A DNA stretch of 22,529 bases, taken from the IMG/VR virus record IMGVR_UViG_3300029417_000071; one strand, 5' to 3'. A program made the translations under genes and the position numbers. Under the pieces are notes generated by a model that was not told the DNA's origin, ran no database searches, and saw nothing but the letters and a program-made list of their open reading frames with translations. Below, in pieces: positions 3,305 to 22,529 of this stretch (position 1 is the first letter of the stretch; each line of letters starts with the position of its first letter). Source of the DNA: a virus. Its lineage: Duplodnaviria; Heunggongvirae; Uroviricota; Caudoviricetes.

Positions 3305-3318
3305 CATGTTCTCCACCT

Positions 3319-3346: not shown

Positions 3347-3364
3347 ATGATGAGTATCGTCCTG

Positions 3365-4108: not shown

Positions 4109-4119
4109 TGCCACCTCCT

Positions 4120-5096: not shown

Positions 5097-5107
5097 CCCA
5101 CACCTCT

Positions 5108-5383: not shown

Positions 5384-5699
5384 TGAGTTTTACCGGCACT
5401 TCTTCTGCACTGGTTCCGGCATCTGCCCAGACAACCCCGACCAGCGGATCAGAGCCGCTGTTAGTCAGCTGAACTTTTCCGGACTTCAGATAAACCTTCT
5501 TACCCGTTTTCATGTCATCCGTTTTCAGCTTAGGCAGCATAAACACACCTTCGGTCATGCCGTCGCCTGTTTCACCCTGTGGAATATCGGTCAGCGCCAC
5601 CGCAAAAACATCGCCCACCTGCACCAGATCTCCGCTGCTGATGGCTGCACTGGCAACAATCGCCACCGTTTTTCCTTCTTCTACAAAATTCTTTGCCAT
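5376..5699 (-). CDS. DUF2190-like small head protein (capsid cement/decoration candidate)
   Basis: Track ORF 5376..5744; ATG at 5699 with SD GGAGA; 107 aa, Gly/Val-rich; immediately downstream of the capsid gene; overlaps the FII-like start (ATGTCTGA). Confidence 0.55.
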   Translation of the reverse strand: MAKNFVEEGKTVAIVASAAISSGDLVQVGDVFAVALTDIPQGETGDGMTEGVFMLPKLKTDDMKTGKKVYLKSGKVQLTNSGSDPLVGVVWADAGTSAEEVPVKLNV

Positions 5700-5740
5700 A
5701 ACTGTCTCCGCACAGCCCCGTTCAGGGGCTGATTTCAGGT

Positions 5741-5763
5741 ACAAAAAAAGCCCTTACGGGCCA
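5741..5763 (-). terminator. putative attenuator stem-loop with T-run after the capsid gene
   Basis: Minus strand has a short GC stem (GCCC gtaa GGGC) followed by TTTTTTT just after the capsid stop (5786); a second 6-bp stem AGCCCC/GGGGCT lies at about 5714-5730. Confidence 0.35.
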
Positions 5764-5785
5764 TCAGAGTTGTTGTCTGCGACGT

Positions 5786-7744: not shown

Positions 7745-7757
7745 CCTGAACCAGGAA

Positions 7758-9266
7758 TTATTCTTCGGACTGGTCGTCGGTGTGCTGCGGCTCCTGTCGT
7801 TTCGTTGCGGCACTGCTGCCTCCTTTATCACTGGCCGGATCGGTATCAAATACCAGATCCAGCTTGCGGTTTTCATCAATTTCGGCCTTGCGCCGACGTT
7901 TGACATCATCCGGATTACGACCACCTGCACGTACCCAGTCTGATTCTGTCGCCGCTCCACCACGAATCTGAATTTTCCAGGCCTCAGCCTCCTTAACAGG
8001 GTCAATCCACGGCATCACCGGTCCGGAATACACCGCGGTATACAGTGAAGAACGATCAAGATCGCGGGGTAGCCTGATAACACCGGATGCCACAGCCTGT
8101 TTCAGCCAGGCACGATACATCGGGCGGGTGACGGCACCAATAAACCAGTCCTGCAGGATCAGGTAGCCATCAGTGGATTCAACCAGCTCCTGACGCTGGG
8201 CGCTGTAAGTGCCGTTATAGTTGCGTGCCGTACTGGAAAAACTCAGACGACTGCCCGCCGCCACGGCACGCAACTGACCATTACGAAAAGTTTCAAGGTT
8301 AGGATTGGGACGATCCGACTTCACCATTCCGATTTCTTCGCCGGGTTTCAGATCGTCGTAAATAATGCCTGGCTGAATGGTAAGCTCGCGTTCATTCTCC
8401 TTGCTGCCATTACCATCCGGTTCATAGCTCTGCCCGTCGCCTTTCCGGATGTACATCCCCAGAGCAGCGGCGATCCTTGCTGCAGTCAGCTCAGAATCTT
8501 CATACTCTTTCAGGGCACTGAGGCGGATCAGCACACCGGACAACAAAGACGTCCCGCGCATCTGGTGCAGACGGCGAACAAATTTAAGATGCAGCATTCG
8601 CTCTGCATCCACTTCTTTGGTTTCCATCTGCCGCCCGGATACGGGACGGCTTTTATACACCAGATATTTTTCGGGACGCCCCCAGTCATCAACAAACACG
8701 CCCTGATTCAGCCTGTTGCTCTCATCACTGGTCATGGGAATAAAGTCCGGCTCGAGCGCCTCCAGCCAGAAATGAACACCGGCAGAAGGCGTCAGGCTGT
8801 TTATGCGCCCGGAAACCATCTGGGCAAACACCTCACCATCGCGCAGCCAGGTACGCAGCATCAGACGTTCCAGCATCGGACGGGTAAACTGCCCGGTGAC
8901 TTCCGGACTGACAGACCATTCACTCCATCGGGTGCGTATCTCCGCTGCCAGATCACGGGCAATGGCCCCATTGCGTAATACCGGATGTGGCTCGACAATA
9001 ATCCCGTTTTTCCCCACCACCCGTTCTTCCAGCTTGTCAAATACACCAATAACCAGATCGTGGTTGTTATCAAGGTAACGGGCCTGCTCACGTAACGACA
9101 CGGCCCCGTACTGGCTTAACTGGTCGGCAGTTCGGTTTTCCCGCCGGGCTTTGTGTGTCCGTGTCGTTTTTACGGCCTCATAAGCCTGGATCACCGCACG
9201 GGAACGCAGCCTTGCCGCTTTCCATCCTGGTGAAAAAACGCCAATCACATCATCAAGAATTGCCAT
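7758..9266 (-). CDS. portal protein (lambda gpB family)
   Basis: Track ORF 7758..9338; Met25 at 9266 (MAILDDVIGVF) overlaps the W stop (TGATG). About 500 aa, between W and the protease-capsid gene; acidic C-terminus. Confidence 0.85.
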   Translation of the reverse strand: MAILDDVIGVFSPGWKAARLRSRAVIQAYEAVKTTRTHKARRENRTADQLSQYGAVSLREQARYLDNNHDLVIGVFDKLEERVVGKNGIIVEPHPVLRNGAIARDLAAEIRTRWSEWSVSPEVTGQFTRPMLERLMLRTWLRDGEVFAQMVSGRINSLTPSAGVHFWLEALEPDFIPMTSDESNRLNQGVFVDDWGRPEKYLVYKSRPVSGRQMETKEVDAERMLHLKFVRRLHQMRGTSLLSGVLIRLSALKEYEDSELTAARIAAALGMYIRKGDGQSYEPDGNGSKENERELTIQPGIIYDDLKPGEEIGMVKSDRPNPNLETFRNGQLRAVAAGSRLSFSSTARNYNGTYSAQRQELVESTDGYLILQDWFIGAVTRPMYRAWLKQAVASGVIRLPRDLDRSSLYTAVYSGPVMPWIDPVKEAEAWKIQIRGGAATESDWVRAGGRNPDDVKRRRKAEIDENRKLDLVFDTDPASDKGGSSAATKRQEPQHTDDQSEE

Positions 9267-9478
9267 CAGAACCTCGCCAGCCGGTACCCGGGATGCCCCC
9301 GTCGTCGTGTAATCAGAGCCGCAAGGCGGCGCTCCCACTCCTGCCGTCCCTGCCGGATCTCAGATAAGTTTTCCATGGTCATCTGCTGACCATTAAAGGT
9401 GACGGATTTTCCGTCCAGCACCGCCATTTCAGCTTCCGTATAACGCTGAATCATGGCTTCGATATCATTCTGGTTCAT
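9266..9478 (-). CDS. head-tail joining protein W (lambda gpW-like)
   Basis: Track ORF 9266..9484; about 70 aa; C-terminus RRRGHPGYRLARF resembles lambda W RRRGPAGFYV; SD GGAGG; start overlaps the terminase stop (ATGA). Confidence 0.75.
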   Translation of the reverse strand: MNQNDIEAMIQRYTEAEMAVLDGKSVTFNGQQMTMENLSEIRQGRQEWERRLAALITRRRGHPGYRLARF

Positions 9479-11577
9479 AACCATCCTCCGGAAGTCAGCC
9501 AGGGGTTAACATCGTCAGTTACTGTTTTCTTCCGTTTTTGTTTTTTAACAGGCGTGGATACCGGTTCCGGTGTGGGTGACGGTTCGGTACTGTCCGGGAC
9601 ACACTCCAGCCAGGTTTCCCGGCTCGCCCACTCCGGTGCATCCGGCCAGCGGATCTTTTCGTATCCATGCAGAATGACCAGAGCCTCGGCATACACCATC
9701 AGGTCAAAAGCTTCGTTGGCACCGCGACCCGGCTTACTCCATTTCCCGTCACTGCTCCGCTCTTCATACGTCAGTTCGTCGTAAAACCAGCTCCCCAGCC
9801 AGTCAGGGAAATGCACATAGCCGGGACCTGGCGAGTCACGCCATAACGCGTTATTCACCCGGTCTTTCAGGGCATCCGTCTGAAGAAGCCAGAGCGGCAC
9901 ATCACCTGCGGCCTGCGCCCGGCGGCCCGTTCGTCCGGTGTTATCAGGGAATGTACGGCTGATCAGTTTTGCGCGCCGGATGCTGTCACCCTTAAACAGG
10001 TAAATACGTTTACCAAGGCCATCACGACGGCAACGACGCCAGAATTTATAGGCATTATCAGTGACCCCGTCTTCACCGCCGGAGTCCACCGCCATTGCCA
10101 TCAGTCGCATTTGTTGAGAAGGATCGGAGGCCAGCGGCCAGCTTTTATGAAAAACATCCGTCAGCAGGACATCCCAGTCTTCCGGATAGCTGGCCGGATC
10201 AATTCGCTGGCTCTCCCCGTCGCTGTCACCGCGCAATGACTGCGTGATGTTGTAACGATCAATAATCCAGCGTTCGCCACGGCTGCCATAGCCCGTTACC
10301 TGAACCACAAAACGGCGATGACGTCCCGCCTGCACATCCACTGTCGCCACAAGGAAATTAACGCCATCCGGCACACTGCGGGAAGGAACTGGCTCTGCCC
10401 GCTGCTCAAGCAATTCACTTTTTCGTTGCTCCATGCTGGCGCGGGGAAGATAAGGTAATCCCCAGTCGGTATTGATAACCGTCTTGAGTGTCTCTTCACT
10501 TCCGGTTGTCTCGTATTCCTGTTCTGCAGTAAGCAGTTTGTAAACGAGTTGCGAGAGTGTCTGATAAGCAGCTGCCGGACCCTCCATCCAGAATGACGCA
10601 ATACGTGAACGCCGGGGATCACCATAACGACTGCCATCTGCATTGATGGATTCACCATCCCGTAACCAGACCCCACGTCCGTTCAGCTCGCGTTTTTGTT
10701 CAGGCAAAATCCGTCCTGAACAGGAAGGACACTGAATATAAGCCGCCTCACTTGCCAGCACAGGATCGGCAATATCACGGAAACCAGCAACCACATCGCC
10801 GCAGGGCTGAAAATACTCACCACAGTGTGGACAGGGCCAGTACCAGCGACGGCGATCGCCACGGTTATAGAGCGACAGGATCCCCGTGGTTGGTGGAGCC
10901 TCATGCGGTGAAGTCCGTCGCCATTTCACATCCTTCACATCCCTGCCGGGGGAACTCTCCACCAGCGTCATACCACTGGACATAAATGTGGTGGTACGTT
11001 TTGAGGCAAGAGAGAAGGCATCCCCCTCACCATCAATATCTTCCGGAAAACGGTCATAATCCGTCAGCGCCACGCATTTATAATCTGATGAAGACATGAT
11101 ATTGACTGACGGCCAGCCGATTTTCAGGTAGTTGCCAGCAAGGAATGTTCTGTCATAAACGTTGTTGTCATTTTTGTTCGGACTCAGGCGACTGACCACT
11201 TCCGGGCTGACGCGAAACGTTCTGGCGAGTCGTTTTTTGGAGTGTTCGCGGGCTTTTTCCTCCGTCATCTGAATGATCAGCATATCAGCAGGATCGCAAA
11301 TCACGTTGTAAATCACCCAGCCGTCAATCAGGCCGATAGTCTTGCCGGTTCGTGCCGGGCCAACAAATATCACTGCGTCGTATTCACGCGAGGCCAGGCA
11401 GTTCATAGGCTCAATAACATACGGTGCCACCAGCGGATCCCACGGGACTGAGTTCCCTGCCCCCATAGGCACCCGCATATACTGAGCAACGGCATCAGCA
11501 ACCCGCATTCGTCTCGGTGCGCGAAGGATATAACCTGAATCGGTTCGTGCTGCCTTTGCGGTTTCCTGATTCAGCAT
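9475..11577 (-). CDS. terminase large subunit (lambda gpA family)
   Basis: 700 aa; zinc-finger-like CPHCGEYFQPC parallels lambda A CPHCGEEQY; Walker-type FVGPARTGKT; start overlaps the small-subunit stop. Confidence 0.9.
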   Translation of the reverse strand: MLNQETAKAARTDSGYILRAPRRMRVADAVAQYMRVPMGAGNSVPWDPLVAPYVIEPMNCLASREYDAVIFVGPARTGKTIGLIDGWVIYNVICDPADMLIIQMTEEKAREHSKKRLARTFRVSPEVVSRLSPNKNDNNVYDRTFLAGNYLKIGWPSVNIMSSSDYKCVALTDYDRFPEDIDGEGDAFSLASKRTTTFMSSGMTLVESSPGRDVKDVKWRRTSPHEAPPTTGILSLYNRGDRRRWYWPCPHCGEYFQPCGDVVAGFRDIADPVLASEAAYIQCPSCSGRILPEQKRELNGRGVWLRDGESINADGSRYGDPRRSRIASFWMEGPAAAYQTLSQLVYKLLTAEQEYETTGSEETLKTVINTDWGLPYLPRASMEQRKSELLEQRAEPVPSRSVPDGVNFLVATVDVQAGRHRRFVVQVTGYGSRGERWIIDRYNITQSLRGDSDGESQRIDPASYPEDWDVLLTDVFHKSWPLASDPSQQMRLMAMAVDSGGEDGVTDNAYKFWRRCRRDGLGKRIYLFKGDSIRRAKLISRTFPDNTGRTGRRAQAAGDVPLWLLQTDALKDRVNNALWRDSPGPGYVHFPDWLGSWFYDELTYEERSSDGKWSKPGRGANEAFDLMVYAEALVILHGYEKIRWPDAPEWASRETWLECVPDSTEPSPTPEPVSTPVKKQKRKKTVTDDVNPWLTSGGWL

Positions 11578-12071
11578 TACTCCTCCTGCTGTAATTCCTC
11601 CTCATCATCCGCACCTGCTTCAGTCACCCGCAGGGCTATCTGATCGCGCAGATCATCAATAATGGACTGAACACGGCTCACAGCGGCAGGCTGCAGACCG
11701 CAGTCACGTTCAAGAATATCCGGTAATGTCTCCAGCACCTGCACGACCGCTTTTGCCCAGATGGCAAACTCCCGTCTGACATCACTGGCCGGAATGAGTT
11801 GTGCCGTTTCCTGTTCGAACTTAAGACGCTCACGTTCAGACTGATACCAGGCTTTGCGCTCATGCGCGTCCATTTCGCCTTCTGCAACCGGCGGTGGTAA
11901 TGCCAGAAATGCCGACACAATATCAACCACCCGATAAAGCTTGAGGTTGCTTTCATGCCCCCCTGCAACGGGTAGATTTTGCAGCCTTGCCGCAGCAGTC
12001 TGGCGATGTACACCTGACAATGCCGCCAGTTGACTGATATTCAGCGTCAGATTTTTTAACTCTCGATCCAT
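11577..12071 (-). CDS. terminase small subunit (Nu1/NohA-like)
   Basis: 164 aa immediately upstream of terminase large; N-terminal HTH-like LNISQLAALSGVHRQTAAARL; acidic C-terminus; lies next to the putative cos site. Confidence 0.8.
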   Translation of the reverse strand: MDRELKNLTLNISQLAALSGVHRQTAAARLQNLPVAGGHESNLKLYRVVDIVSAFLALPPPVAEGEMDAHERKAWYQSERERLKFEQETAQLIPASDVRREFAIWAKAVVQVLETLPDILERDCGLQPAAVSRVQSIIDDLRDQIALRVTEAGADDEEELQQEE

Positions 12072-12445: not shown

Positions 12446-12613
12446 ATGCGAACCATAAATGCCTCATCTTCAGCAATGCAGCCGGCATCCGAACAGGACG
12501 ATATTGTAAATTCACCTAATTACGAGGACATTGCAGTAGTTGAATTGCAGCTCTGTATTAGCCTGACAGTGACAGAATGCGATATTGACTCTGTCACAGG
12601 TGAAATAGTTTGA
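12446..12613 (+). CDS. candidate small acidic protein (55 aa), hypothetical
   Basis: Hand-translated: MRTINASSSAMQPASEQDDIVNSPNYEDIAVVELQLCISLTVTECDIDSVTGEIV; SD GAGGGG about 5 nt upstream; below the track length threshold. Confidence 0.25.
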   Translation: MRTINASSSAMQPASEQDDIVNSPNYEDIAVVELQLCISLTVTECDIDSVTGEIV

Positions 12614-12633
12614 ATGATTAGCAGTTATGGTGC

Positions 12634-12840
12634 TCAGTCAACCACCAGGGAATAATCCTTCGAATTCTTATCGTGCTTCACCAACGCTGCCTCAATTGCC
12701 CTGAATGCTTCCAGAGACACCTGATGTTCTATACATGCAATTACAACATCCGGGTAACTCATAGAAATGGTGCTATTAAGCATATTTTTTACACGAATCA
12801 GATCCAACGAGAGTTCATCAGCAGATTGTTCTTTATTCAT
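12634..12840 (-). CDS. hypothetical small protein (YnfO-like by position next to the Nu1/NohA gene)
   Basis: Track ORF of 68 aa, [23 protein letters not shown]...; AT-rich moron region between cos and ydfO. Confidence 0.5.
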
Positions 12841-13140
12841 TTTGTCGCTCCATGCGTTTGCTCGTCATCTAGCGGTTAAAATATTACTTCAAATCTTACT
12901 GCATAAAAGAGGAAAAGTATGAAAGTTTGAGTACATCGACCTTACATACATCTGTCGGTTGCATATCCCTCCTGGATGCCAGCAAGGCTCAATTTTGTTA
13001 CGCAATCAACACTATTCATTAAAAACAGGCTTAATATTTGACATAAATCATCAACAAAACACAAAGAGGTCAGACCAGATTAAAACAATAAACACGATAA
13101 TGCAAACTACGCGCCATCGTATCACATGGAAGGTTTACCA

Positions 13141-13551
13141 ATGGCTCAGGCTGCCATTTTTAAAGAAATATTCGATCAAGTGCGTAAAGATTTAAACTGT
13201 GAATTATTTTATTCTGAGCTAAAACGTCACAATATCTCACTTTATATTTACTATTTAGCCACAGATAATATTCACATTGTGTTAGAAAACGACAACATAG
13301 TGTTAGTAAAAGGACTCAAAAAGGTTGTAAATGTTAAATTCTCCAGAAACAAACATCTTATAGAGACCTCCTATAATAAGTTGAAATCAAAAGAAATCAC
13401 ATTTCAACAATACAGGGAAAATCTTGCTAAAGCAGGAGTTTTCCGATGGGTTACAAATATCCAGGAACACCAAAGATATTACTATGCCTTTGATAACTCA
13501 TTACTATTTACTGAAAGCATCCAGAAAACTACACAGATCTTACCACGCTAA
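13141..13551 (+). CDS. ydfO: DUF1398-family protein YdfO-like
   Basis: Track ORF 13126..13551; ATG at 13141 with SD GGAAGG; 136 aa [30 protein letters not shown]...; recalled as Qin prophage ydfO. Confidence 0.65.
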
Positions 13552-13644
13552 ACCATAACGTCCGGCTTCTCTCACTCCTGAGCCGGACTGCATTGGTTTA
13601 ATAAAAACCATCAACAATTGTGATTTAGATATTCGGAACCATTC

Positions 13645-13675
13645 AAATATAACAAAACCCCGTAAAAACGAGGTT
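13645..13675 (-). terminator. putative terminator downstream of gnsB
   Basis: Minus strand reads CCTCG TTTTTA CGGGG followed by TTTTGTT, about 30 nt after the gnsB stop. Confidence 0.35.
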
Positions 13676-13702
13676 TATGGATAAATTTTATTATTGAATA
13701 CA

Positions 13703-13876
13703 TCAGATTAAATTAATCTTGACATCATAGCTTTCAAGACCCGTCATTTTTTCCCGTGCGGTAAACTGAATACTGGTAACTTCTTTCCCGGTCTTTTTCT
13801 TAAGTTCAATAATTTTTTTTGTTATATATTCAGAAATATCTGCTTCTGCTTTTGTTTTTAAGTTTTCAATATTCAT
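13703..13876 (-). CDS. gnsB: GnsB (GnsA/GnsB family small protein)
   Basis: Hand-translated 57-58 aa: (M)MNIENLKTKAEADISEYITKKIIELKKKTGKEVTSIQFTAREKMTGLESYDVKINLI, closely resembling the GnsA/GnsB family; below the track threshold; tandem ATG at 13879/13876. Confidence 0.75.
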   Translation of the reverse strand: MNIENLKTKAEADISEYITKKIIELKKKTGKEVTSIQFTAREKMTGLESYDVKINLI

Positions 13877-14047
13877 CATTTCCTCTTTTAGTCTGTTATG
13901 ACTTTCCAGTTACACAGTAAGTCGATTATATGGTGCAAACGTGTAAAAGATAAGATGAAACATCGCAATAATCAACATACGATAGTCTAAATTTTACACA
14001 AACAGACAAAGAGAATTTTCCTGAATTATCAATACAATAGCATCAAA

Positions 14048-14278
14048 TCAACTCAAGAGCCTTATTGCTGCTTCCAGAATTTCTTCTGAAGTAACATGTC
14101 GATCCGCGGCTACATAAATGACTTTATGATCTCCGGTCAGAGATGGAAACCCTGCGGCCATTACAGTAAGGTGTGTTTTTTCGCCATTTGGATATTCACG
14201 CATGATGGTGTTAACTCCAGTCATCGCTGGCACTACCACTGCTGGTTCAGAGTTAAAAAAAACTATGATTTTTTTCAT
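14048..14278 (-). CDS. hypothetical protein (YnfN-like by position between gnsB and cspI)
   Basis: Track ORF 14048..14320 starts at TTG; the first ATG is at 14278 (MKKIIVFFNSEPAVVVPAMTGVNTIMREYPNGEK...). It sits directly downstream of the cspI terminator. Confidence 0.45.
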   Translation of the reverse strand: MKKIIVFFNSEPAVVVPAMTGVNTIMREYPNGEKTHLTVMAAGFPSLTGDHKVIYVAADRHVTSEEILEAAIRLLS

Positions 14279-14321
14279 GATGTTACCGTAGTATGTGAGT
14301 ATCCATCGAATAGATACCAAG

Positions 14322-14350
14322 CAAAAAAGCTCCCGAAGGAGCCTTCATTT
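14322..14350 (-). terminator. intrinsic terminator after cspI
   Basis: Minus strand reads GCTCC TTCG GGAGC followed by TTTTTTGC (plus about 14329-14342 with A-run 14323-14328). Confidence 0.6.
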
Positions 14351-14549
14351 TCACTTTTTTAAATCCAACGACAGACGGCTGGCATTTAAGTATTGTGAAA
14401 TATTATCAAATGTAATCATCATTGATTTACAAAAGATACATTTTGCCCCGAAAGGATTCATGTCAGAAACATCAAAAGATGATGTTCTATACTGGGAACC
14501 ATGACAACACGGGCATCTAAAGTGAATATGGTTTGTAATATTGTCTACC

Positions 14550-14762
14550 TCAAAGCGCCACTACATGAACAGCGGCAGGACCTTTAGGTCCGTTCTCAAT
14601 ACCAAATTCAACTTCCTGATTCTCAGTTAATGTTTTGAAATCGTTGCTCTGAATTGCTGAGAAATGGACAAACACATCTTTGCTGCCATCTTTCGGCGTG
14701 ATGAAACCAAAACCTTTTTCAGGGTTAAACCATTTCACTAAACCAGTCATTTTGTTAGACAT
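14550..14762 (-). CDS. cspI: cold shock protein CspI
   Basis: 70 aa [70 protein letters not shown]; canonical cold-shock domain with RNP motifs; long AT-rich 5' leader (14763-15125). Confidence 0.9.
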
Positions 14763-15125
14763 AATTATTACCTTTTGAAGAAATTAGCCCTTGGGCAGAA
14801 TGGTCCGAAAAAAAATATCAGAGAGAAAAACCAACAAGGAAATCTCAAGAGGTACAAATAATAAAATTATAACAATGACTGCTTCAGATAAATTTGTAAC
14901 AAACCAGAACACCATTAACGCATGATTAACCACCCATAGCAAGGATTACTTTTGTAAAGAAAAACACAGCAATGAAAGAATAGCTTTATTTATTAATAAT
15001 AACGTGTCATTCTGATTAAGACCTTTTATCTTACCCTTAAGATTTCAGGAATTTTGGCTCATGGAAGAGTCCTTTTTATTTAAATTTTACATTCCGCGAT
15101 GTAAATGTTCCGATTTAATATTACC

Positions 15126-16149
<1,024 letters not shown>

Positions 16150-16153
<4 letters not shown>

Positions 16154-16437
16154 ATATATTTATGATGAGGACGCTCGTGCTTATTGGCAGGATTTTCAAT
16201 CTTAAAGGAGTACTGATGCTGCAGATAAGACTCAACTTTTTCTGACAATTTTTCTGCTACTTCCAGGAAGACTTGCCGGACGCTCCTTCTGGCTGCTGCC
16301 TCATAAAACTCCAGCGCAGCTCCTTCAACACGGTCCATGGCGACATCCAGGTCAAAAATTTCACCGTCAAAGCGTTCTTTGTCCTGTAAGGCTACAGTTA
16401 CCGTAACTTTATTCTCAAAATTACGGACTCCTTTCAC
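16150..16437 (-). CDS. hypothetical protein between holin and endolysin (YdfR-like)
   Basis: Track ORF of 95 aa with a non-ATG first codon; acidic; same position as ydfR in Qin; start uncertain. Confidence 0.5.
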
Positions 16438-16465
16438 AACCAGTTCATAGTCTTGAGTCGTTGGA

Positions 16466-16681
16466 TTACTCTCCTCTCGCAGCCTTACGCCTGTCTTCTT
16501 TAATCTTGAAATAAAGATTTGTCAGATACGTCAGCAGGCCAAAAACCAGGCTACCCAGCACACCGATTGCAGCCCACTGTGACGGAGTTACTTTATCGAG
16601 TAACTGCAATGCCCAGAAACCAGCATTACCCGCCGATGTGCCATAGGCAACACCTGTTGTTAACTTATCCATTGATTTCAT
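16466..16681 (-). CDS. essQ: pinholin (phage 21 S21-like class II holin) with dual-start motif
   Basis: Track ORF 16466..16756; Met26 at 16681 gives 71 aa [71 protein letters not shown], near-identical in pattern to S21; Met1/Met4 dual start; SD GGTGAGG. Confidence 0.85.
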
Positions 16682-16900
16682 ATCCTCACCCCGATGTACA
16701 CGGATGGTGCAATATGTTTGAAAAGATCGGAGTCTACGGGGTAGTTTTGACAGCACACGTTGTTCTCAACGGCGCTAAAAAAACATACACATTAAAAATG
16801 TGGGTAATTATTTTGAAAGAAAGTCATATATAAAATAATAATACGAGAAATGTTTTCATATTTAGTGTACTGTATACGGCCATTTATACAGGAAAAGCCT

Positions 16901-17071
16901 ATGTCAGAACGTAAAAACTCAAAATCACGCCGTAATTATCTCGTTAAATGTTCCTGCCCAAACTGCACCCAAGAGTCAGAACACAGTTTTTCAAGAGTAC
17001 AAAAAGGTGCCCTTTTGATCTGCCCTCATTGCAACAAAGTATTCCAGACAAATCTTAAAGCTGTAGCCTGA
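16901..17071 (+). CDS. ynfU: small zinc-ribbon protein (56 aa), possibly YnfU-like
   Basis: Track ORF 16850..17071; ATG at 16901 with SD AGGAAAAG; MSERKNSKSRRNYLVKCSCPNCTQESEHSFSRVQKGALLICPHCNKVFQTNLKAVA with CxCxxC...CxxC. The symbol is from memory of Qin small proteins and is tentative. Confidence 0.5.
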   Translation: MSERKNSKSRRNYLVKCSCPNCTQESEHSFSRVQKGALLICPHCNKVFQTNLKAVA

Positions 17072-17130
17072 TTGATTTTATTAGTAACAAGTATTTTTTA
17101 TATTTTAATAATATATTTAAAGCAGATAAT

Positions 17131-17156
17131 AAAAAACCCGCCTGAGCGGGTTTGAG
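17131..17156. terminator. bidirectional intrinsic terminator (cspB on minus, zinc-ribbon gene on plus)
   Basis: CCCGC ctga GCGGG flanked by an A-run on plus (T-run on minus, TTTTTTATTAT) and TTTG on plus. Confidence 0.6.
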
Positions 17157-17434
17157 ATTGTGGTGCTTTTTGTGGGAGTCATCCACTTACGCACTTTGTT
17201 TTGCCATGCCAGCAGTTAGCTTCTGCTGTAAAACTATTCATGCAGCAAACCTGCACTTCACCACAATGGTTAGCATACTTTTCCTGATTAAGATTTTGCC
17301 AAATATGCTAGCCATTGTTTCATGTATTGGACCTCCTTACTTTTTATTAAAGAGATCCAATATTCACTACTCTGTCCGTATCTCTACTCAGGCATCAGCC
17401 TTCTTCGTTATCGTATACAGACGAGCGATGAATT

Positions 17435-17650
17435 TTAATCAGTAATGATGACATTTGCTGCTGCAGGACCTTTAGCACCACTCTCTATAGAGAAGGTAAC
17501 CTTTTGACCTTCAAATAAGGTTCGATAATTATCATTCTGAATCGCAGAAAAATGCACAAACACATCTTTACTACCATCAACAGGAGAAATAAAGCCGAAA
17601 CCTTTATCAGCGTTAAACCATTTTACTAAACCAGTCATTTTATTTGACAT
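17435..17650 (-). CDS. cspB: cold shock protein CspB
   Basis: 71 aa [71 protein letters not shown]. Confidence 0.9.
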
Positions 17651-17950
17651 TCTACATTCCTTAACTTGAGCCTTTCGGCATAAATGGTTTGCATAACAGA
17701 AACGACTTCGTACTTAATTGGAGAGACTCAAAGAAGGAATAAGTGAATAACACCTGAAATGAGAACTGCTTTAGTAAACTACTTCGTATATCGTCTGTTC
17801 TTCAAACCGACGCAATCATTAACGCATAGTTGAACATATGAAGCAATGTTTATTTTAGACATCCAGCCATCTTCAACCCCATCAAAAAACTATAGCTTTC
17901 TTCAGGAACGTGTGTATAGTGCGCCAAGTTATCAGTATTAAGGAATTTTT

Positions 17951-18163
17951 TTGTCCCGTAAAATGACAGGAATTGTCAAAACCTTTGACGGCAAAAGCGG
18001 CAAGGGTCTTATCACCCCATCCGATGGTCGTATCGATGTCCAGCTTCATGTTTCAGCGCTCAATCTCCGCGATGCAGAAGAAATTACCACCGGATTACGC
18101 GTGGAATTTTGCCGGATAAATGGTCTGCGTGGCCCTTCAGCTGCCAATGTTTACCTTTCATGA
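17951..18163 (+). CDS. cspF: cold shock protein family member CspF/CspH-like
   Basis: 70 aa [70 protein letters not shown]; a divergent CSD lacking the canonical aromatic RNP residues; divergent from cspB. Confidence 0.85.
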
Positions 18164-18217
18164 GCTATATTAAAGCTTTAATTTCAGGCCCCATCGGATC
18201 ACACATGGAGAGTTTTT

Positions 18218-18307
18218 ATGAATAACCCCGTCTGTCTTGATGACTGGTTGATTGGCTTTAAAAGCTTATGCTGTACTTTGGCCGTAATAGCTCTGCTAAT
18301 AATATAA
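18218..18307 (+). CDS. candidate small hydrophobic peptide (29 aa)
   Basis: Hand-translated [29 protein letters not shown]; SD GGAGAG about 6 nt upstream; between cspF and the Q-proximal terminator; below the track threshold. Confidence 0.25.
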
Positions 18308-18447
18308 TAAGCAGACTCATTGTGTTTAGGGACATTGTACTGGAAGAAAATATTTTAAACATCAGGCAAATAACCAAGTCACCAGCTAAATAATAAGTTA
18401 ACAGACATGAGTCCCGGGATGAGATTCAACATTACCATTGCCCCATT

Positions 18448-18482
18448 TAAAGCACAAAACCCGCTCATCAGCGGGTTTTCTA
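18448..18482. terminator. bidirectional intrinsic terminator (tR'-like for the short late transcript on minus; cspF terminator on plus)
   Basis: CCCGCT catc AGCGGG with TTTTCTACTTTTTC on plus and TTTTGTGCTTT on minus. Confidence 0.6.
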
Positions 18483-18515
18483 CTTTTTCTTAACGTCGGG
18501 TATACAAAGCCCATC

Positions 18516-18553
18516 GTTGAAAAAATTTTATCCATATTTTTTGAAAAATGCAA
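18516..18553 (-). promoter_or_regulatory. putative late promoter PR' (Q-utilization region)
   Basis: On minus: -35 TTGCAT (18553-18548), 17-nt spacer, -10 TAAAAT (18530-18525). It lies about 30 nt downstream of the Q stop and about 65 nt upstream of the terminator, the lambda PR'/qut/tR' layout. Confidence 0.45.
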
Positions 18554-18584
18554 ACATCATGTCGCCATCTTCAGCAAAAATCAT

Positions 18585-19337
18585 TTATCTCGTCACCTTC
18601 CTCAATTGCGCTTCCGCGTATGCTTCTTCCTGCCAGCACTTTGTTACCAGTTTATCAATGACGTCCGCATACCCCTTATACCACTGATAATCGGTCAGGT
18701 CTGGTACCAGCTTCTGGACATGACGTCGTGCCAGCGTGGTCGGTAAACGACTAAATCGGTTTCCATTACAACGCCCACAAATCTTATATACCGGTACGCC
18801 ATGAAACCGGGTTCTTTTTTCATCCAGAACAATCCCTTTACCCTTACACCCTCTGCACGCTGTGCTGACTTCGCCCTTACCATGGCAATGCTGACATAGT
18901 TCCTTCACCCATTCTTCCTTGATTACAGATTCCCCGCGTCTGTAGTGTTTCACCACTTCGCGCAATACATTATAAAATCCCGTACCTGAACAATGCTCAC
19001 AGCGAGCCTTACTTGCCGCAGACCTGGAGTAATCAGCAAAGGCAAAATTCACAAGGTAAGGAATAATCTGTAACCGGATTTCTTCACTCAATTTGTTCAA
19101 TGTCGGGTTATCCAGTGCCATCGCGTAATTTAGCAGGCCTTCAATCGCAAACTGAGGGTCCTGAACACCAACTTTTGCCAGAAATAAGGCCAACCCAAGT
19201 GGTGCTTTCGACTGCACCATCCCCTGCGCTGCCATTACATCCGTAATTGTTAAACAACCGGTGCCTGTCGCTGGAGCGTCATCGCTCAATTTTGGAGATT
19301 TTGGGGAGTAATATTTTGGTAAGGCTTCAAGGTTCAT
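18585..19337 (-). CDS. quuQ: late antiterminator Q
   Basis: 250 aa; Cys-rich zinc-binding region CEHCSGTGF...CQHCHGKGE...CRGCKGKG...CGRCNGN; position immediately upstream of PR' and the lysis genes. Confidence 0.85.
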   Translation of the reverse strand: MNLEALPKYYSPKSPKLSDDAPATGTGCLTITDVMAAQGMVQSKAPLGLALFLAKVGVQDPQFAIEGLLNYAMALDNPTLNKLSEEIRLQIIPYLVNFAFADYSRSAASKARCEHCSGTGFYNVLREVVKHYRRGESVIKEEWVKELCQHCHGKGEVSTACRGCKGKGIVLDEKRTRFHGVPVYKICGRCNGNRFSRLPTTLARRHVQKLVPDLTDYQWYKGYADVIDKLVTKCWQEEAYAEAQLRKVTR

Positions 19338-19350
19338 GCTCGTTCTCCAC

Positions 19351-20400
19351 TTACGCCAGTACGCCAGTTGCCAGCGCGCGATCGATAAAACGAAATATCA
19401 GCTCCAGTTGGGAGCCATACTTCTCTTCAAATGCCACTGTATCCGTATGCAGCTCGTTGTGATGCTTTCTGCACAAAGGCAACACAAAGAGATCATGTGC
19501 TTTTGTTCCCATTCCGCCCTGCCCGTGACCAATCAGATGATGCGGATCGTCGGCTGGCATACCGCAGCAAGCACACGGCTGTGTCTTAACCCAACGAGTG
19601 TATTTCTCCTTAACCCAGCGGCGACGTTTAGGCAGCTTCATGAAAGATTCCGGAGACTCTGGATCAACGGTGATGCTTACCACCGTCTTTTCCTGTGGTG
19701 GTTTTTGTTGCTGGTGGGCGTAAGGCAACGGTGCAAGATTTTCTGTGCGTTGTTTCAATATGCTGGTGGCGGTCTGCTCTCCCTGTACGATGTCGCTTTC
19801 GCGGTACACCGAGCAGATTTTTTCCGCTGGTAATCCCAGCGAACGACGCGATACAGCCTCAGGTAGTGCATCCACCACCTGATTGCAGACCGCCCACCAG
19901 GATAATTCAGCCAAAGATAATTCCCGCTCCTGCGTACCGCTTATTGCGTGACGGATGACGTCAATCACCCATGCTGTCAGATTTTGTTGAGCAAGCAGCT
20001 CCAGTGATTCCGATGTCTGGTCACGCAGTTGGTTGTCGCAGTGCCAGCACAACACCATTGCGCCGGTACCATAACGGTGAATGACTGTTTCAGTGTGATG
20101 GTAATCGCCATTAGGCCACTGGCAGGATGTAACATGACGTAATAGCCAGTCAGACAATGCGCCAACGCCGCCAGTAGCACGAATCACCCGTTCGTTACTA
20201 AAAAACGGCAGCAATGTTTTGTCTTCTGCCAGCGGCTGGCGAACGGCAGGAACGACTCCGGATGGCAGATTTCGCATGCTTTTTGGTTCCGGTTCCACCA
20301 GCACTCGAGGATTATGAAATATCTGTATGGATTCACGGCCCGGCTTAAGGACCACCAGCCCAAGCTCAGGCACCAGAACAGGTCTAAGTAATACCCGCAC
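19351..20400 (-). CDS. ydfU: DUF968 protein YdfU-like with C-terminal HNH-like Cys/His motif
   Basis: Track ORF 19351..20439; GTG at 20400 has a perfect SD GGAGGT 5 nt upstream that overlaps the stop of the upstream gene, giving 349 aa. C-terminus QPCACCGMPADDPHHLIGHGQGG...PLCRKHHNELH. Confidence 0.75.
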   Translation of the reverse strand: MRVLLRPVLVPELGLVVLKPGRESIQIFHNPRVLVEPEPKSMRNLPSGVVPAVRQPLAEDKTLLPFFSNERVIRATGGVGALSDWLLRHVTSCQWPNGDYHHTETVIHRYGTGAMVLCWHCDNQLRDQTSESLELLAQQNLTAWVIDVIRHAISGTQERELSLAELSWWAVCNQVVDALPEAVSRRSLGLPAEKICSVYRESDIVQGEQTATSILKQRTENLAPLPYAHQQQKPPQEKTVVSITVDPESPESFMKLPKRRRWVKEKYTRWVKTQPCACCGMPADDPHHLIGHGQGGMGTKAHDLFVLPLCRKHHNELHTDTVAFEEKYGSQLELIFRFIDRALATGVLA

Positions 20401-20401
20401 G

Positions 20402-20680
20402 TTACCTCCAGATCCGTTGCTGGAAAGTGCGGGACGCACGTGGTGGGCGTTCGGAATAAGGCAGCCTGACAGAGATTATCCAGTGCCGATAGTCGAGACT
20501 GAGAGCTTTCTTAACCTCGAACCCGCGCCTGCGGTAAGAATGAATCAGCCATTCGGCCTGTTCTGCAGTGCATGGAGGGTGCTGGAACCATTCAGACTTG
20601 AATGCGTGAGAATACCGCCCGTGCGTGCAGGCAAGAACGGGCGAATTATCAGAATTGTAATATTTTACGTTGCGTGCCAT
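20402..20680 (-). CDS. hypothetical Cys/His-containing protein (92 aa), translationally coupled to ydfU
   Basis: MARNVKYYNSDNSPVLACTHGRYSHAFKSEWFQHPPCTAEQ...; SD GGAG upstream; stop TAA sits inside the ydfU SD. Confidence 0.6.
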   Translation of the reverse strand: MARNVKYYNSDNSPVLACTHGRYSHAFKSEWFQHPPCTAEQAEWLIHSYRRRGFEVKKALSLDYRHWIISVRLPYSERPPRASRTFQQRIWR

Positions 20681-20746
20681 CGGTTTTCTCCGGTGGCACG
20701 GTGTTACTCAGCGGGAGTTCAGCCCCGCGCAAGATTGTAGATGAGT

Positions 20747-20998
20747 TTATTCTTCTGCAAAAGCAGAAAAGCCAGCTTTTATTCCGATCTCTTTCAATGC
20801 CTGTAATGAAGTGACAAACTCACCTTCGCGCAAGATAAATCCGTCCGTGACCCGAGCATCCACAAAATTAATTAACGCAGCCCCATTCTTTCGCAAACAC
20901 ATAATGCGGTAATGACTAACAAGATTTCCATTTTCAACGCACACAGCATAGAGGCCATCTTCACAAAAAATTTTACGCAGTTCTTCGATGTTCATCAT
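20747..20998 (-). CDS. hypothetical protein (83 aa), possibly Rem-like by size and position
   Basis: MMNIEELRKIFCEDGLYAVCVENGNLVSHYRIMCLRKNGAALINFVDARV...; located between hokD and ydfU as rem is in Qin, from memory. Confidence 0.5.
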   Translation of the reverse strand: MMNIEELRKIFCEDGLYAVCVENGNLVSHYRIMCLRKNGAALINFVDARVTDGFILREGEFVTSLQALKEIGIKAGFSAFAEE

Positions 20999-21117
20999 CA
21001 GAATCCTTCCGGATAATTAGCTCTCCCCTTTAAGGGACCATCCCTCTTATCCCTGCGCGCTACTTAAGTATTTTTGATTCTATTCCGGCACCGTCCAGAT
21101 CTTCAAACGCGTTGAAA

Positions 21118-21146
21118 ATAAAAACAAAAACCCGCCGAAGCGGGTT
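21118..21146 (-). terminator. intrinsic terminator after hokD
   Basis: Minus strand reads CCCGCTTCGGCGGG followed by TTTTTGTTTTT. Confidence 0.6.
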
Positions 21147-21214
21147 AAGTGCGGGTGCGTTGAGGATGCCTGCCACATCAGAGGTGGCGAGGGATTTCTC
21201 CCTCGCCGGGTCTC

Positions 21215-21370
21215 TTACTCCTCAGGTTCGTAAGCTGTGAAGACAGCGACCTCCGTCTGGCCGGTTCGGATTCGTACCTCGCAGAGGTCTTTCCTCGTTA
21301 CCAGTGCCGTCACTATGACGGTTAAACAGATGACGATCAGGGCGATTAACATCGCCTTTTGCTGCTTCAT
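21215..21370 (-). CDS. hokD: Hok-family type I toxin HokD (RelF)
   Basis: Track ORF 21215..21427; Met20 at 21370 gives 51 aa MKQQKAMLIALIVICLTVIVTALVTRKDLCEVRIRTGQTEVAVFTAYEPEE; SD AAGGAG; followed by a hok-mRNA-like 3' stem-loop GGCGAGGGA tttc TCCCTCGCC (about 21186-21207). Confidence 0.85.
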   Translation of the reverse strand: MKQQKAMLIALIVICLTVIVTALVTRKDLCEVRIRTGQTEVAVFTAYEPEE

Positions 21371-22044
21371 AGCCTGCTTCTCCTTGCCTTTCGGCTCGTA
21401 AGAGGCTAACCTACATGTGTCTAGCATGAAATTGGCCTCAGATTAATGTTAAGCGTCTTGCAGGACGCGTAATGTTAACTGGGGCTTTTCTCTATCTGCC
21501 TTTGGTGTTCATGCCCGAGGCAGATAGCCTCAAGCACCCGCAGCCATTCTACTTAACTACCGTTACCTCGCCAATATGAAATCAGTCAGAAAGGCGATCC
21601 ATAAGAACAATAGCAAGACAATAAATCGCCATTACAGCCGTAATAGCCAGCGCACATTTGAGAACCAGCACCACAACCTCCTGTATTGGACGTAGACCAG
21701 TCCTGATGAATATGAGGCTGTCTCGTCAGTGATTCAATACAACTATTGGGTATAGTTTCTCTGATTTTTTCTGTGGAAATGGGGCACAACCACTAGTCAC
21801 CACCAGCACTTCTTTTAATACGCAAAGTCCGACACAAGCTAACCTTCTAGTCCGCTTTGAGCGAAAAACAGCCATAATTTAGTGCCACGTATATAATGAT
21901 AGAGCTATTCAAGCTAGCAATTCACATGTAAAAATTCAGAGGGTAGAAGCACATAGTTATAAATGTTGGCTCCATCGACAAATTGCGGTCTCAAGTACAT
22001 TTATTAATGTTGCCCCCGCATTAACAAATCATCAAGGTGACGAC

Positions 22045-22503
22045 ATGGACGATATTAATATCAGCCTCGACGAACTTAACACTATTGATTTATCCCCCTT
22101 AATCCAGAGTAAGCTGCCAGTTACCTGCTTTGATATCACAAAGTATCTTTCTAGCCTAGGTGATGGAAGAGCGGAGATAAGACTGCTAACCCATATTTGC
22201 GGTTTTCACTTTCGTCCCGAAAATCCACAGGTACCATTTGGTCCGTGCTTTCAAAGCAGCCAAGGTAGATCTGCAATTCCGGATGACATTAACGGGTTGT
22301 CGCTGGAGGTACTTTCTCAATTTTGCCCGACGATAGAGCTACCCGAACTTCAAGCTCGTATTGCTGATACACTTTGGGTTCGTAAAATTGGTGGAATCCG
22401 TTTTCCTTTGCTGGCAGTCCGTGCTTATTATGCGTCCAGTATAGCTATTATGACTGAACCGCCCCGGGAATCCTGGAGACTAAACTTCCTGAGAAAGAGG
22501 TAA
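22045..22503 (+). CDS. hypothetical protein (152 aa), first gene of an unknown plus-strand operon
   Basis: MDDINISLDELNTIDLSPLIQSKLPVTCFDITKYLSSLGDGRAEIRLL...; SD AAGGTG; preceded by an AT-rich promoter-like region; no family recognised. Confidence 0.55.
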   Translation: MDDINISLDELNTIDLSPLIQSKLPVTCFDITKYLSSLGDGRAEIRLLTHICGFHFRPENPQVPFGPCFQSSQGRSAIPDDINGLSLEVLSQFCPTIELPELQARIADTLWVRKIGGIRFPLLAVRAYYASSIAIMTEPPRESWRLNFLRKR

Positions 22504-22508
22504 ACAGG

Positions 22509-22529
22509 ATGACTAAAAATACTCGTTTT
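22509..22529 (+). CDS. 5' end of a downstream gene (MTKNTRF...), truncated by the window edge
   Basis: ATG at 22509 follows SD AAGAGG and lies 5 nt after the stop of the 152 aa gene, suggesting an operon. Confidence 0.3.

What the first reader, a model, noticed from the sequence alone, without database searches (positions are those of the whole stretch)
21790..22529. Unknown AT-rich operon next to hokD, where K-12 Qin carries relBE
After hokD the window has about 600 bp with no convincing ORF. A plus-strand operon then starts at 22045: a 152 aa protein I cannot assign to any family, followed 5 nt later by a second gene (MTKNTRF...) that is cut by the window edge. By eye the region is noticeably more AT-rich than the structural module, as expected for horizontally acquired cargo. 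Prophage slots like this often hold anti-phage defence or toxin-antitoxin modules. From memory, Qin in K-12 has relB-relE directly upstream of hokD; I see no RelE/RelB-like ORF here.
Basis: partly seen in the sequence, partly recalled or inferred. Interest (0 to 1): 0.6.

Follow-up and report, generated by a model that had tools for sequence, protein, structure and literature searches.

The report
IS629-broken candidate phage-defence gene beside hokD
The "unknown operon" is one 595-residue candidate anti-phage RNase gene of a Qin-like prophage, cut after codon 137 by an IS629 insertion sequence, so the "second gene" is just the IS transposase and the locus is a broken copy of a catalogued but untested gene.

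Summary
The sequence observations hold: a 152-aa ORF at 22045-22503, an ATG 5 nt later (MTKNTRF), lower GC, and no relBE. The interpretation as a two-gene operon does not hold.

- **Break point.** The window is 100% identical to an intact 1,788-bp gene, present in about 150 complete E. coli genomes, only up to 22454.
- **The insertion.** 22455-22529 is the left end of a 1,310-bp IS629, and MTKNTRF is its orfA. A complete genome (CP164011.1) shows the whole insertion with a 3-bp GAC target duplication. Removing the IS and one GAC copy restores the intact gene with 0 mismatches.
- **The intact protein.** It has an N-terminal DUF7380, a TPR-like solenoid and a C-terminal DUF4209 domain. The latter has an invariant RNxxxH motif and a predicted HEPN fold. 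It matches PADLOC candidate PDC-S39 (E 1e-103) and was scored defensive by DefensePredictor. I found no experimental test.
- **The slot.** The gene sits in a cassette-swapping slot between hok/sok and DUF977. K-12 carries relBE there; other strains carry PDC-S33 or other cargo, with PD-T7-1 nearby in one.

The most likely function of the intact gene is an abortive-infection HEPN RNase; this is inferred. In this window it is inactivated. Interest is low to moderate.

The parts
21215..21370 (-). hokD coding sequence (51 aa). The overlapping mok-type ORF extends to 21427.
   Evidence: ORF list. RefSeq annotates the identical stretch as 'type I toxin-antitoxin system toxin HokD' in L001.
21365..21539 (-). 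hok leader / sok antisense-RNA region. It is present here but replaced by relBE in K-12.
   Evidence: Rfam RF01794 sok, 116 bits (gathering score 59), E 3e-27. K-12 homology ends at 21384. A promoter-like site lies at 21574-21546 on the minus strand.
21540..21865 (.). Conserved flank of the cargo slot, shared with Qin-like prophages that carry other cargo. It contains a 29/30-aa hydrophobic ORF at 21582-21674 (-).
   Evidence: About the first 325 nt of the query 21540-22044 match in 1,783 genomes, while the full length matches in only 151. Breakpoints fall at L001 9463-9470, which is window 21862-21869. The small ORF stays intact across 4 diverged copies.
21866..22044 (+). Cassette-specific upstream region of the DUF7380/HEPN gene. 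This is the presumed promoter region, but the scan found no consensus sigma-70 site.
   Evidence: It co-occurs only with the gene. The promoter scan found nothing on the + strand.
22045..22454 (+). Native 5' part (codons 1-136 plus 2 nt) of a 1,788-bp DUF7380-TPR-like-DUF4209(HEPN) gene, PADLOC candidate PDC-S39.
   Evidence: 100% identical to the intact alleles up to 22454. Pfam DUF7380, E 4e-28. PADLOC PDC-S39, E 8e-19 for the fragment and 8e-103 for the intact protein.
22045..22503 (+). Chimeric 152-aa ORF: 137 native residues plus EPPRESWRLNFLRKR read from the IS629 left end.
   Evidence: The same ORF is deposited as WP_250222559.1 and seen on 27 contigs.
22452..22454 (.). Left copy of the 3-bp target-site duplication (GAC).
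   Evidence: In L003 (CP164011.1), GAC flanks both ends of the IS. The intact allele has a single GAC.
22455..22529 (+). Left end of IS629. The terminal inverted repeat starts TGAACCGCCCCGGG, and the orfA ATG is at 22509 (MTKNTRF...). It is cut by the window edge, which is probably an assembly break at a multicopy repeat.
   Evidence: The 75 bp are 100% identical to IS3-family elements in 3,553 E. coli genomes. The full 1,310-bp element in L003 is 99.5% identical to one annotated 'insertion sequence:IS3 family IS629'. The terminal 14 nt of the inverted repeats are perfect. orfA matches NCBIfam's IS3 transposase model.

Best explanation
**What is in the window (shown).** The region is the 5' third of a single cargo gene of a Qin-like lambdoid prophage, interrupted by a recent simple transposition of IS629. 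The insertion lies after nucleotide 410 of the 1,788-bp gene. It truncates the reading frame into a 152-aa chimeric ORF, and the IS transposase orfA follows 5 nt later. That arrangement imitates an operon. The gene is therefore inactivated in this lineage.

**What the intact gene encodes (shown).** It encodes a 595-aa protein with three parts: an N-terminal DUF7380 domain, a central TPR-like alpha-solenoid, and a C-terminal DUF4209 domain. The C-terminal domain has a HEPN fold with an invariant R-N-x-x-x-H-G motif.

**How the intact protein most likely works (inferred).** It is probably a stand-alone abortive-infection effector. The DUF7380/TPR part would sense a phage cue. The HEPN domains of two protomers would then form an active RNase that cuts cellular or phage RNA and stops phage production.

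**Where it sits (shown).** It occupies a cassette-exchange slot between hok/sok and the DUF977 gene next to the prophage's YdaT/Cro-type early genes. Other strains carry relBE (K-12), PDC-S33 or other cargo in that slot; PD-T7-1 lies a little beyond it in E. coli 042.
For: **The insertion**
- Identity to intact alleles stops at exactly 22454.
- The complete genome CP164011.1 (L003) shows the 152-aa ORF, a 1,310-bp IS at 10411-11720, and then the rest of the gene. The IS has a GAC target duplication.
- Removing the IS and one GAC copy gives the intact 1,788-bp gene with 0 mismatches.
- The IS is 99.5% identical over its full length to an annotated IS629.
- The chimeric ORF was read on 23 contigs from NCBI and ENA assemblies; the index lists it in 31 blocks.

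**The intact protein**
- Pfam: DUF7380, E 2e-34, and DUF4209, 34 bits against a cut-off of 22.3.
- PADLOC PDC-S39, E 8e-103, covering residues 43-581.
- R546 and H551, plus Q482, E484, S486 and R488, are invariant in 40 homologues down to 24% identity.
- AlphaFold2 models have pLDDT 89.7 and 89.6.
- DUF4209 was assigned to the HEPN superfamily (C6orf70/ERMARD family), with a note that it occurs in R-M-related operons (PMC3710099).

**Defence context**
- PDC systems were derived from genes embedded in BREX, DISARM and type I R-M loci (bioRxiv 10.1101/2024.01.29.577857).
- DefensePredictor lists this protein cluster as a predicted defence gene, with log-odds 4.34 and 5.72 against a cut-off of 4 (PMC13092281 Tables S5 and S10).
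- Homologues sit in prophage accessory-gene slots, next to a TIR-domain gene and near a cloacin-type bacteriocin with its immunity gene, near CBASS, or in small islands.
- Alternative cassettes at the same boundaries include PDC-S33. PD-T7-1 lies nearby in E. coli 042.
Against: - No experiment on this protein or on PDC-S39 was found. The PDC sets are described as untested. The accessions of this cluster do not appear in DefensePredictor's tables of cloned systems.
- RNase activity, dimerisation and the trigger are all inferred.
- No sequence relative has a solved structure.
- The DefensePredictor score for the 595-aa allele (4.34) is only just above the cut-off.
- Some homologues lie among housekeeping genes with no other defence gene within 8 kb.
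- The fold of the N-terminal DUF7380 domain could not be searched on its own.
Confidence: 0.9

Rival explanations
1. One reading: a genuine two-gene plus-strand operon, made of a 152-aa protein and a partner, that forms a new toxin-antitoxin or defence module.
For: The 5-nt spacing and the shared strand look operon-like.
Against: The second ORF is IS629 orfA. The last 15 codons of the first ORF lie inside the IS inverted repeat. About 150 genomes carry the uninterrupted 595-aa gene at the same place.
Confidence: 0.01
2. The intact gene is not an anti-phage system. It could instead be a HEPN toxin that stabilises the prophage or acts in competition (an addiction-type or selfish element). It could also be an RNA-processing factor that serves the prophage's own life cycle.
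For: HEPN domains also occur in toxin-antitoxin toxins and in RNA-processing enzymes (one search hits; PMC3710099). The gene sits beside hok/sok, in the slot where K-12 has the relBE toxin-antitoxin pair. Some homologues have no neighbouring defence genes. At least three independent IS disruptions would fit a costly or dispensable gene.
Against: No conserved neighbouring gene that could act as an antitoxin was found; the downstream genes in Vibrio and Aeromonas are unrelated. Two independent defence-prediction approaches flag the family. The large sensor-like TPR region resembles the layout of known single-protein defence effectors (my inference).
Confidence: 0.3
3. The split gene still does something. 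One possibility is that the 152-aa N-terminal fragment, or a 479-aa C-terminal fragment translated from an in-frame ATG inside the IS629 right end, is expressed. Another is that rare precise excision of the IS turns the gene back on.
For: An in-frame ATG at L003 11662, inside the IS right end, opens a 479-aa ORF that continues into the native frame. The disrupted gene carries no other mutation, so excision would restore it.
Against: The break lies inside the DUF7380 domain, at residue 137 of about 175, so both fragments lack a whole domain. There is no evidence of expression. Precise excision of IS3-family elements is rare (general knowledge). Zero further mutations is equally what a recent insertion would give.
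Confidence: 0.05
4. The junction is an assembly artefact: a contig end falsely joined to a multicopy IS.
For: The window ends 75 bp into a repeat found in thousands of places. Several draft contigs stop at the same point.
Against: A closed 5.15-Mb genome carries the whole insertion with a target-site duplication. The same junction is seen in independent NCBI and ENA assemblies, including metagenomes.
Confidence: 0.01

Closest known systems
IS629 (IS3 family; I recall IS1203 and IS3411 as isoforms)
   Same: 1,310 bp long and 99.5% identical over its full length to an element annotated as IS629. The ends are TG...CA inverted repeats, and the target duplication is 3 bp. An identical copy is annotated with orfA/orfB and a programmed frameshift.
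   Different: Nothing of note. Only the first 75 bp lie inside the window.
PADLOC phage defence candidate PDC-S39 (single-gene candidate; Payne et al., bioRxiv 10.1101/2024.01.29.577857)
   Same: The intact allele matches both PDC-S39 models almost end to end, at E 8e-103 and 3e-102. It is a single gene with no conserved partner.
   Different: PDC-S39 is itself an untested prediction. The copy in this window is truncated at residue 137 and cannot be functional as such.
HEPN RNases of defence and toxin-antitoxin systems: the HEPN-MNT toxin (7ae2, 5yep), Csm6/Csx1, the AbiA HEPN domain, RnlA/LsoA, and AbiJ-type HEPN
   Different: Sequence identity is only 7-17%, and there are no sequence-level hits to the PDB. 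The HEPN domain is fused to DUF7380 and a TPR-like solenoid, not to MNT, CARF or RT partners. Activity and trigger are unknown.
Eukaryotic ERMARD / C6orf70 (the family that gives Pfam PF13910, formerly DUF4209, its name)
   Same: Same Pfam family for the HEPN domain. Anantharaman et al. 2013 place the bacterial and eukaryotic members in one HEPN family.
   Different: The paper describes the eukaryotic protein as having a single transmembrane region. I did not test the bacterial protein for membrane segments. I made no direct comparison with a eukaryotic sequence.
K-12 Qin relBE-hokD (relBEF) arrangement
   Same: Same prophage backbone, 99.5% identical from ydfR to hokD. Both have a toxin-type cargo directly upstream of hokD.
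   Different: K-12 has relE-relB-ydfV-flxA-ydfW and lacks the hok leader/sok region. This window keeps hok/sok and instead carries the DUF7380/HEPN cassette on the opposite strand.

Membership tests
IS629 (IS3 family insertion sequence) | Near-identity over the full length to a reference IS629, with a length of about 1.3 kb | tested here: met
   L003 10411-11720 is 1,310 bp and 99.5% identical to an element annotated 'IS3 family IS629' in LC567824.1. Window 22455-22529 is identical to its first 75 bp.
IS629 (IS3 family insertion sequence) | Terminal inverted repeats (TG...CA) and a short (3-bp) target-site duplication | tested here: met
   The terminal 14 nt are a perfect inverted repeat, and about 23 of the first 25 match. 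GAC is duplicated on both sides and present once in the intact allele.
IS629 (IS3 family insertion sequence) | orfA/orfB transposase with a programmed -1 frameshift | tested here: met
   RefSeq annotation of a copy whose first 75 bp are identical to the window's IS end: 'IS3 family transposase, programmed frameshift'. orfA matches NF033516. The Pfam families HTH_Tnp_1 and rve hit the L003 product.
Pfam DUF7380 (PF24098) | HMM score above the gathering threshold | tested here: met
   98.7 bits against 27 for the 152-aa ORF, covering profile positions 4-147 of 177. The intact protein scores 119 bits.
DUF4209 / ERMARD-type HEPN domain (PF13910) | HMM score above the gathering threshold | tested here: met
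   The intact allele scores 34 bits against 22.3, over residues 484-573. This part of the gene lies outside the window, downstream of the IS.
HEPN superfamily | Conserved Rx4-6H motif | tested here: met
   R546-N-Q-L-A-H551-G. R, H and G are invariant in 40 sequences down to 24% identity.
HEPN superfamily | Helical HEPN fold | tested here: met
HEPN superfamily | Metal-independent RNase activity, usually from a dimer | not testable with these tools
   This needs biochemistry. No multimer prediction tool was available.
PADLOC PDC-S39 | Full-length match to the PDC-S39 HMMs | tested here: met
   E 8.4e-103, with residues 43-581 against profile positions 54-602 of 615.
Anti-phage defence system (validated) | Protection against phage when expressed | not testable with these tools
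   No report was found. PDC systems are described as untested. The cluster's accessions appear in the stored text of DefensePredictor's prediction tables but not of its tables of cloned systems.
RelBE toxin-antitoxin (K-12 Qin arrangement) | relE and relB ORFs upstream of hokD | tested here: not met
   K-12 homology ends at window 21384. No part of K-12 L011 5290-7357 (relE, relB, ydfV, flxA, ydfW) matches the window or L003.
hok/sok type I toxin-antitoxin | Hok toxin ORF with an overlapping mok frame and a sok/leader RNA element | tested here: met
   The Hok CDS and the 70-aa overlapping ORF, the hokD annotation, and Rfam sok at 116 bits.

The most novel reading that the evidence does not exclude
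The intact form of this gene is a real, so far unvalidated, single-protein abortive-infection system. A DUF7380/TPR sensor would gate a HEPN RNase of the same family as eukaryotic ERMARD. The boundary-defined slot between hok/sok and DUF977 in Qin-like lambdoid prophages would be an undescribed exchange hotspot for defence cassettes (relBE, PDC-S39, PDC-S33 and unassigned genes). The repeated IS hits on the gene would reflect its fitness cost.
Probability: 0.4. Interest if true: 0.5.

Novelty: already known. Interest (0 to 1): 0.27.

Why it matters
For this window, the result mainly prevents a mis-annotation. An IS junction produces a fake "operon" and a fake 152-aa protein, which is already deposited as WP_250222559.1. 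The window edge is probably an assembly break at a repeat.

Three things are useful beyond that:
- **A tractable test case for PDC-S39.** The intact allele is a well-defined E. coli representative of an untested defence candidate. It is present, for example, in the common laboratory strain ATCC 25922 at 99.8% identity. Its predicted catalytic residues, R546 and H551, are clear targets for mutation.
- **A slot that can be mined.** The hok/sok-DUF977 slot has sharp, conserved boundaries and several alternative cassettes. Some of these have no family assignment and could be screened for further candidates.
- **A possible link to eukaryotes.** The HEPN domain belongs to the same family as eukaryotic ERMARD. 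A demonstrated immune RNase function in bacteria would bear on the origin of that protein.

Tried and rejected
- **Junction search.** An exact 40-mer spanning the junction found nothing in genome contigs, which holds one genome per species. The source lineage was found instead by exact look-up of the 152-aa protein.
- **Complete E. coli genomes.** None contains this junction; the best coverage was 93%.
- **Sequence searches of the PDB.** The single protein, the full-length profile and the C-terminal profile gave nothing significant. Only weak TPR-like hits appeared, at E 0.03 or worse.
- **NCBIfam.** No family matched the intact protein.
- **PHROGs.** Only families of unknown function matched.
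- **A conserved downstream partner.** The roughly 160-aa genes that follow the homologues in Vibrio cholerae and Aeromonas are unrelated to each other. I therefore rejected a two-gene system.
- **Literature.** 'PDC-S39' and 'DUF7380' did not appear in any of the top-ranked papers of the combined search. 'DUF4209' occurs in the main text of one paper only. The supplements of the PDC preprint contain neither PDC-S39 nor DUF4209 as stored.
- **Promoter.** The simple scan found no sigma-70 consensus promoter on the + strand upstream of 22045.

Full report
**1. The observation**

The sequence-level claims are correct.
- ORF 22045-22503 (+) encodes 152 aa.
- Its stop is at 22501-22503, and an ATG at 22509 opens MTKNTRF..., which runs off the window.
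- hokD lies at 21215-21370 (-), with an overlapping 70-aa mok-type frame.
- GC is 0.44 in the ORF and 0.42 in the intergenic stretch, against 0.537 in the structural module at 1-12000.
- K-12 Qin does have relE-relB directly upstream of hokD.
- The window is 99.5% identical to K-12 Qin over 16096-21384. It diverges 14 nt upstream of the hokD start codon. relBE is therefore truly absent.

**2. What the "operon" is**

A megablast of 21400-22529 against 5,426 complete E. coli genomes gave 148 genomes with 100% identity. In every one, the match covered only the first 1,055 bases, up to window 22454. In those genomes the ORF continues as a 1,788-bp gene encoding 595 aa, annotated "DUF4209 domain-containing protein".

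A direct alignment shows that identity stops exactly at 22454. The last 75 bases (22455-22529) match IS3-family elements in 3,553 genomes, usually in several copies each. They begin 54 bp upstream of an "IS3 family transposase, programmed frameshift" CDS.

An exact look-up of the 152-aa protein found it on 23 contigs, including the closed genome CP164011.1 (L003). The order there is:
- the 152-aa ORF;
- a 404-aa transposase;
- a 479-aa ORF carrying PF13910;
- the DUF977 gene.

The element spans L003 10411-11720, which is 1,310 bp. It has TGAACCGCCCCGGG... inverted repeats and is flanked by a duplicated GAC. Deleting it together with one GAC copy reproduces the intact gene with 0 mismatches in 1,788 nt. 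It is 99.5% identical over its full length to an element annotated "IS3 family IS629".

MTKNTRF is therefore IS629 orfA. The 152-aa product is 137 native residues followed by 15 residues (EPPRESWRLNFLRKR) translated from the IS left end. The window probably ends where an assembler stopped at the repeat.

**3. The intact gene**

*Family assignments*
- Pfam assigns DUF7380 to residues 4-166 and DUF4209 to residues 484-573. Both score above the gathering threshold.
- PADLOC's PDC-S39 models match almost end to end, at E 8e-103.
- PHROGs gives only families of unknown function, and NCBIfam gives nothing.

*Family size and conservation*
- The family is large and uniform in architecture. There are 3,319 representatives of 50% clusters at E <= 1e-3 and 844 at E <= 1e-30. 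Most of the 150 best hits listed are about 600 aa.
- Named members include Enterobacterales, Vibrio, Aeromonas, Shewanella, Pseudomonas and cyanobacteria.
- In 40 sequences down to 24% identity, the invariant residues include R546, H551 and G552 (motif LRNxxxHG). Q482, E484, S486 and R488 on an earlier helix are also invariant.

*Predicted structure*
- AlphaFold2 gives a confident model, with pLDDT 89.7.
- This agrees with Anantharaman et al. 2013. They placed DUF4209 in the HEPN superfamily (C6orf70/ERMARD family), predicted it to be catalytically active, and noted its occurrence in R-M-related operons.

**4. Evidence on function**

No experiment was found.
- PDC systems are 145 untested candidates. 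They were derived from genes embedded in BREX, DISARM and type I R-M loci. Later papers still treat them as unvalidated.
- DefensePredictor (Science 2026) lists this protein cluster as a "predicted novel defense gene". WP_021514655.1 (595 aa) has log-odds 4.34. WP_001429192.1 has 5.72, and one search places it in the same 90% cluster as my query. The cut-off is 4.
- Those accessions occur only in the prediction tables (S5, S10). They do not occur in the tables of cloned systems (S6, S7).

The genomic context is compatible with defence.
- In Enterobacter kobei the homologue lies between antiterminator Q and the lysis genes.
- In E. hormaechei it lies in a prophage, next to a TIR-domain gene and near a cloacin-type bacteriocin gene with its immunity gene.
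- In Oleispira it lies among transposases, about 6 kb from CBASS genes.
- In Vibrio cholerae, Aeromonas and Pseudomonas it forms small insertions among housekeeping genes.
- There is no conserved partner gene.

**5. The slot**

- The first ~325 nt after the hok leader (window 21540-~21865) occur in 1,783 genomes. The remaining ~180 nt co-occur only with this gene, in 151 genomes.
- Pairwise comparison places the cassette at L001 ~9466-11530. That is about 2.06 kb: 180 bp upstream, the gene, and about 97 bp downstream.
- Homology to prophages with other cargo resumes just before DUF977.
- At the same boundaries, other strains carry different cargo:
  - a RelA/SpoT-domain gene that matches PADLOC PDC-S33 at E 5e-119;
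  - two unassigned genes, one with a weak HEPN_RES_NTD1 hit;
  - in E. coli 042, an unassigned gene, an integrase fragment and a PD-T7-1 homologue (E 7e-157).
- K-12 carries relE-relB-ydfV-flxA-ydfW in place of both the hok leader and the cassette.

**6. Disruption is recurrent**

- The gene is present in 152 of 5,426 complete genomes. All copies are chromosomal and at least 99% identical.
- JNEC-KY174 has an IS3-family element in the opposite orientation, near nucleotide 1281.
- MEI1-1023 has ISEc23 near nucleotide 1589.
- Several non-partial truncated proteins exist in RefSeq.
- Together with the window's lineage, this makes at least three independent IS hits. Whether this reflects a cost of the gene or simply IS preference for AT-rich cargo is open.

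**7. Mechanism**

*Shown*
- The IS629 insertion and its consequences for the reading frame.
- The domain architecture.
- The conserved Rx4H motif.
- The predicted HEPN fold.
- The cassette behaviour of the locus.

*Inferred*
- The intact protein is a phage-triggered RNase that acts through HEPN dimerisation.
- DUF7380/TPR is the sensing or autoinhibitory part.
- Activation aborts infection.

I put about 0.9 on the anatomical explanation. I put roughly 0.5-0.6 on the intact gene being a true anti-phage system. In this window the gene is broken inside DUF7380, at residue 137 of about 175, so I expect no function. An in-frame ATG inside the IS right end could in principle give a 479-aa C-terminal fragment. 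I consider that unlikely to matter.

**8. Verdict**

The finding is an IS-disrupted copy of a catalogued but experimentally untested candidate defence gene. Nothing in the window itself is new. The chimeric ORF, the gene family, the IS and the hok/sok module are all in public databases. The useful outputs are the corrected annotation, a clear E. coli test case for PDC-S39, and a sharply bounded prophage cassette slot that could be mined.

Noticed in passing
window 21582-21674 (-): A 29/30-aa hydrophobic ORF, M(V)LVLKCALAITAVMAIYCLAIVLMDRLSD. A perfect AGGAGG lies 5 nt before the second GTG. The ORF ends just upstream of the hok promoter-like site. It stays open in four copies that differ by 4 synonymous and 4 conservative changes, and PGAP does not annotate it. 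It could be a small membrane peptide.
   Followed up: partly
window 21365-21539 versus K-12 L011 5276-5346: This prophage keeps the hok leader/sok element that K-12 Qin lacks. K-12 homology stops 14 nt upstream of the hokD ATG, where relE begins. K-12's relBE-hokD arrangement therefore looks like a replacement of hok's own regulatory region.
   Followed up: partly
L026 5066-6091 (-); L025 4949-6928 (-); L024 5060-8669: Alternative cassettes occupy the same hok-DUF977 slot. One is a RelA/SpoT-domain protein matching PADLOC PDC-S33. Another is two unassigned proteins, one with a weak HEPN_RES_NTD1 hit and one with a weak GNAT hit. In E. coli 042 there is an unassigned 326-aa protein, an integrase fragment and a PD-T7-1 homologue.
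   Followed up: partly
L022 (NZ_AP045170.1) 2784-3997; L023 (NZ_CM149556.1) 4120-6536: Independent IS insertions in the same gene in other strains. One is an IS3-family element in the opposite orientation near nucleotide 1281. The other is ISEc23 (IS66 family) near nucleotide 1589.
   Followed up: partly
L008 (ENA ERZ27310226 k141_153161) 780-4263: In one metagenome assembly, the IS629 copy at this same junction appears to be split itself by a group II intron-type reverse transcriptase gene (RVT_1 + GIIM).
   Followed up: no
L003 11662-13101 (+): An in-frame ATG inside the IS629 right end opens a 479-aa ORF. Twenty IS-derived residues are followed by native residues 138-595, which include the TPR-like region and the HEPN domain.
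   Followed up: no
L020 10926-11348 (+): In the cyanobacterium Trichocoleus, the homologue overlaps by 4 nt a downstream 140-aa gene with a weak PIN-domain hit. This may be a lineage-specific partner.
   Followed up: no
window 21125-21206 (-): A sub-threshold Rfam match to isrK Hfq-binding RNA (25.7 bits against a gathering score of 50). It lies just downstream of hokD and next to a terminator-like hairpin at 21146-21129. It is probably chance.
   Followed up: no
window 12500-15000 and 16500-18000: These are the most AT-rich parts of the window (GC 0.33-0.40). They correspond to the gnsB/ynfN/cspI and cspB/cspF accessory-gene regions of Qin, and are more AT-rich than the region in the finding.
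   Followed up: no
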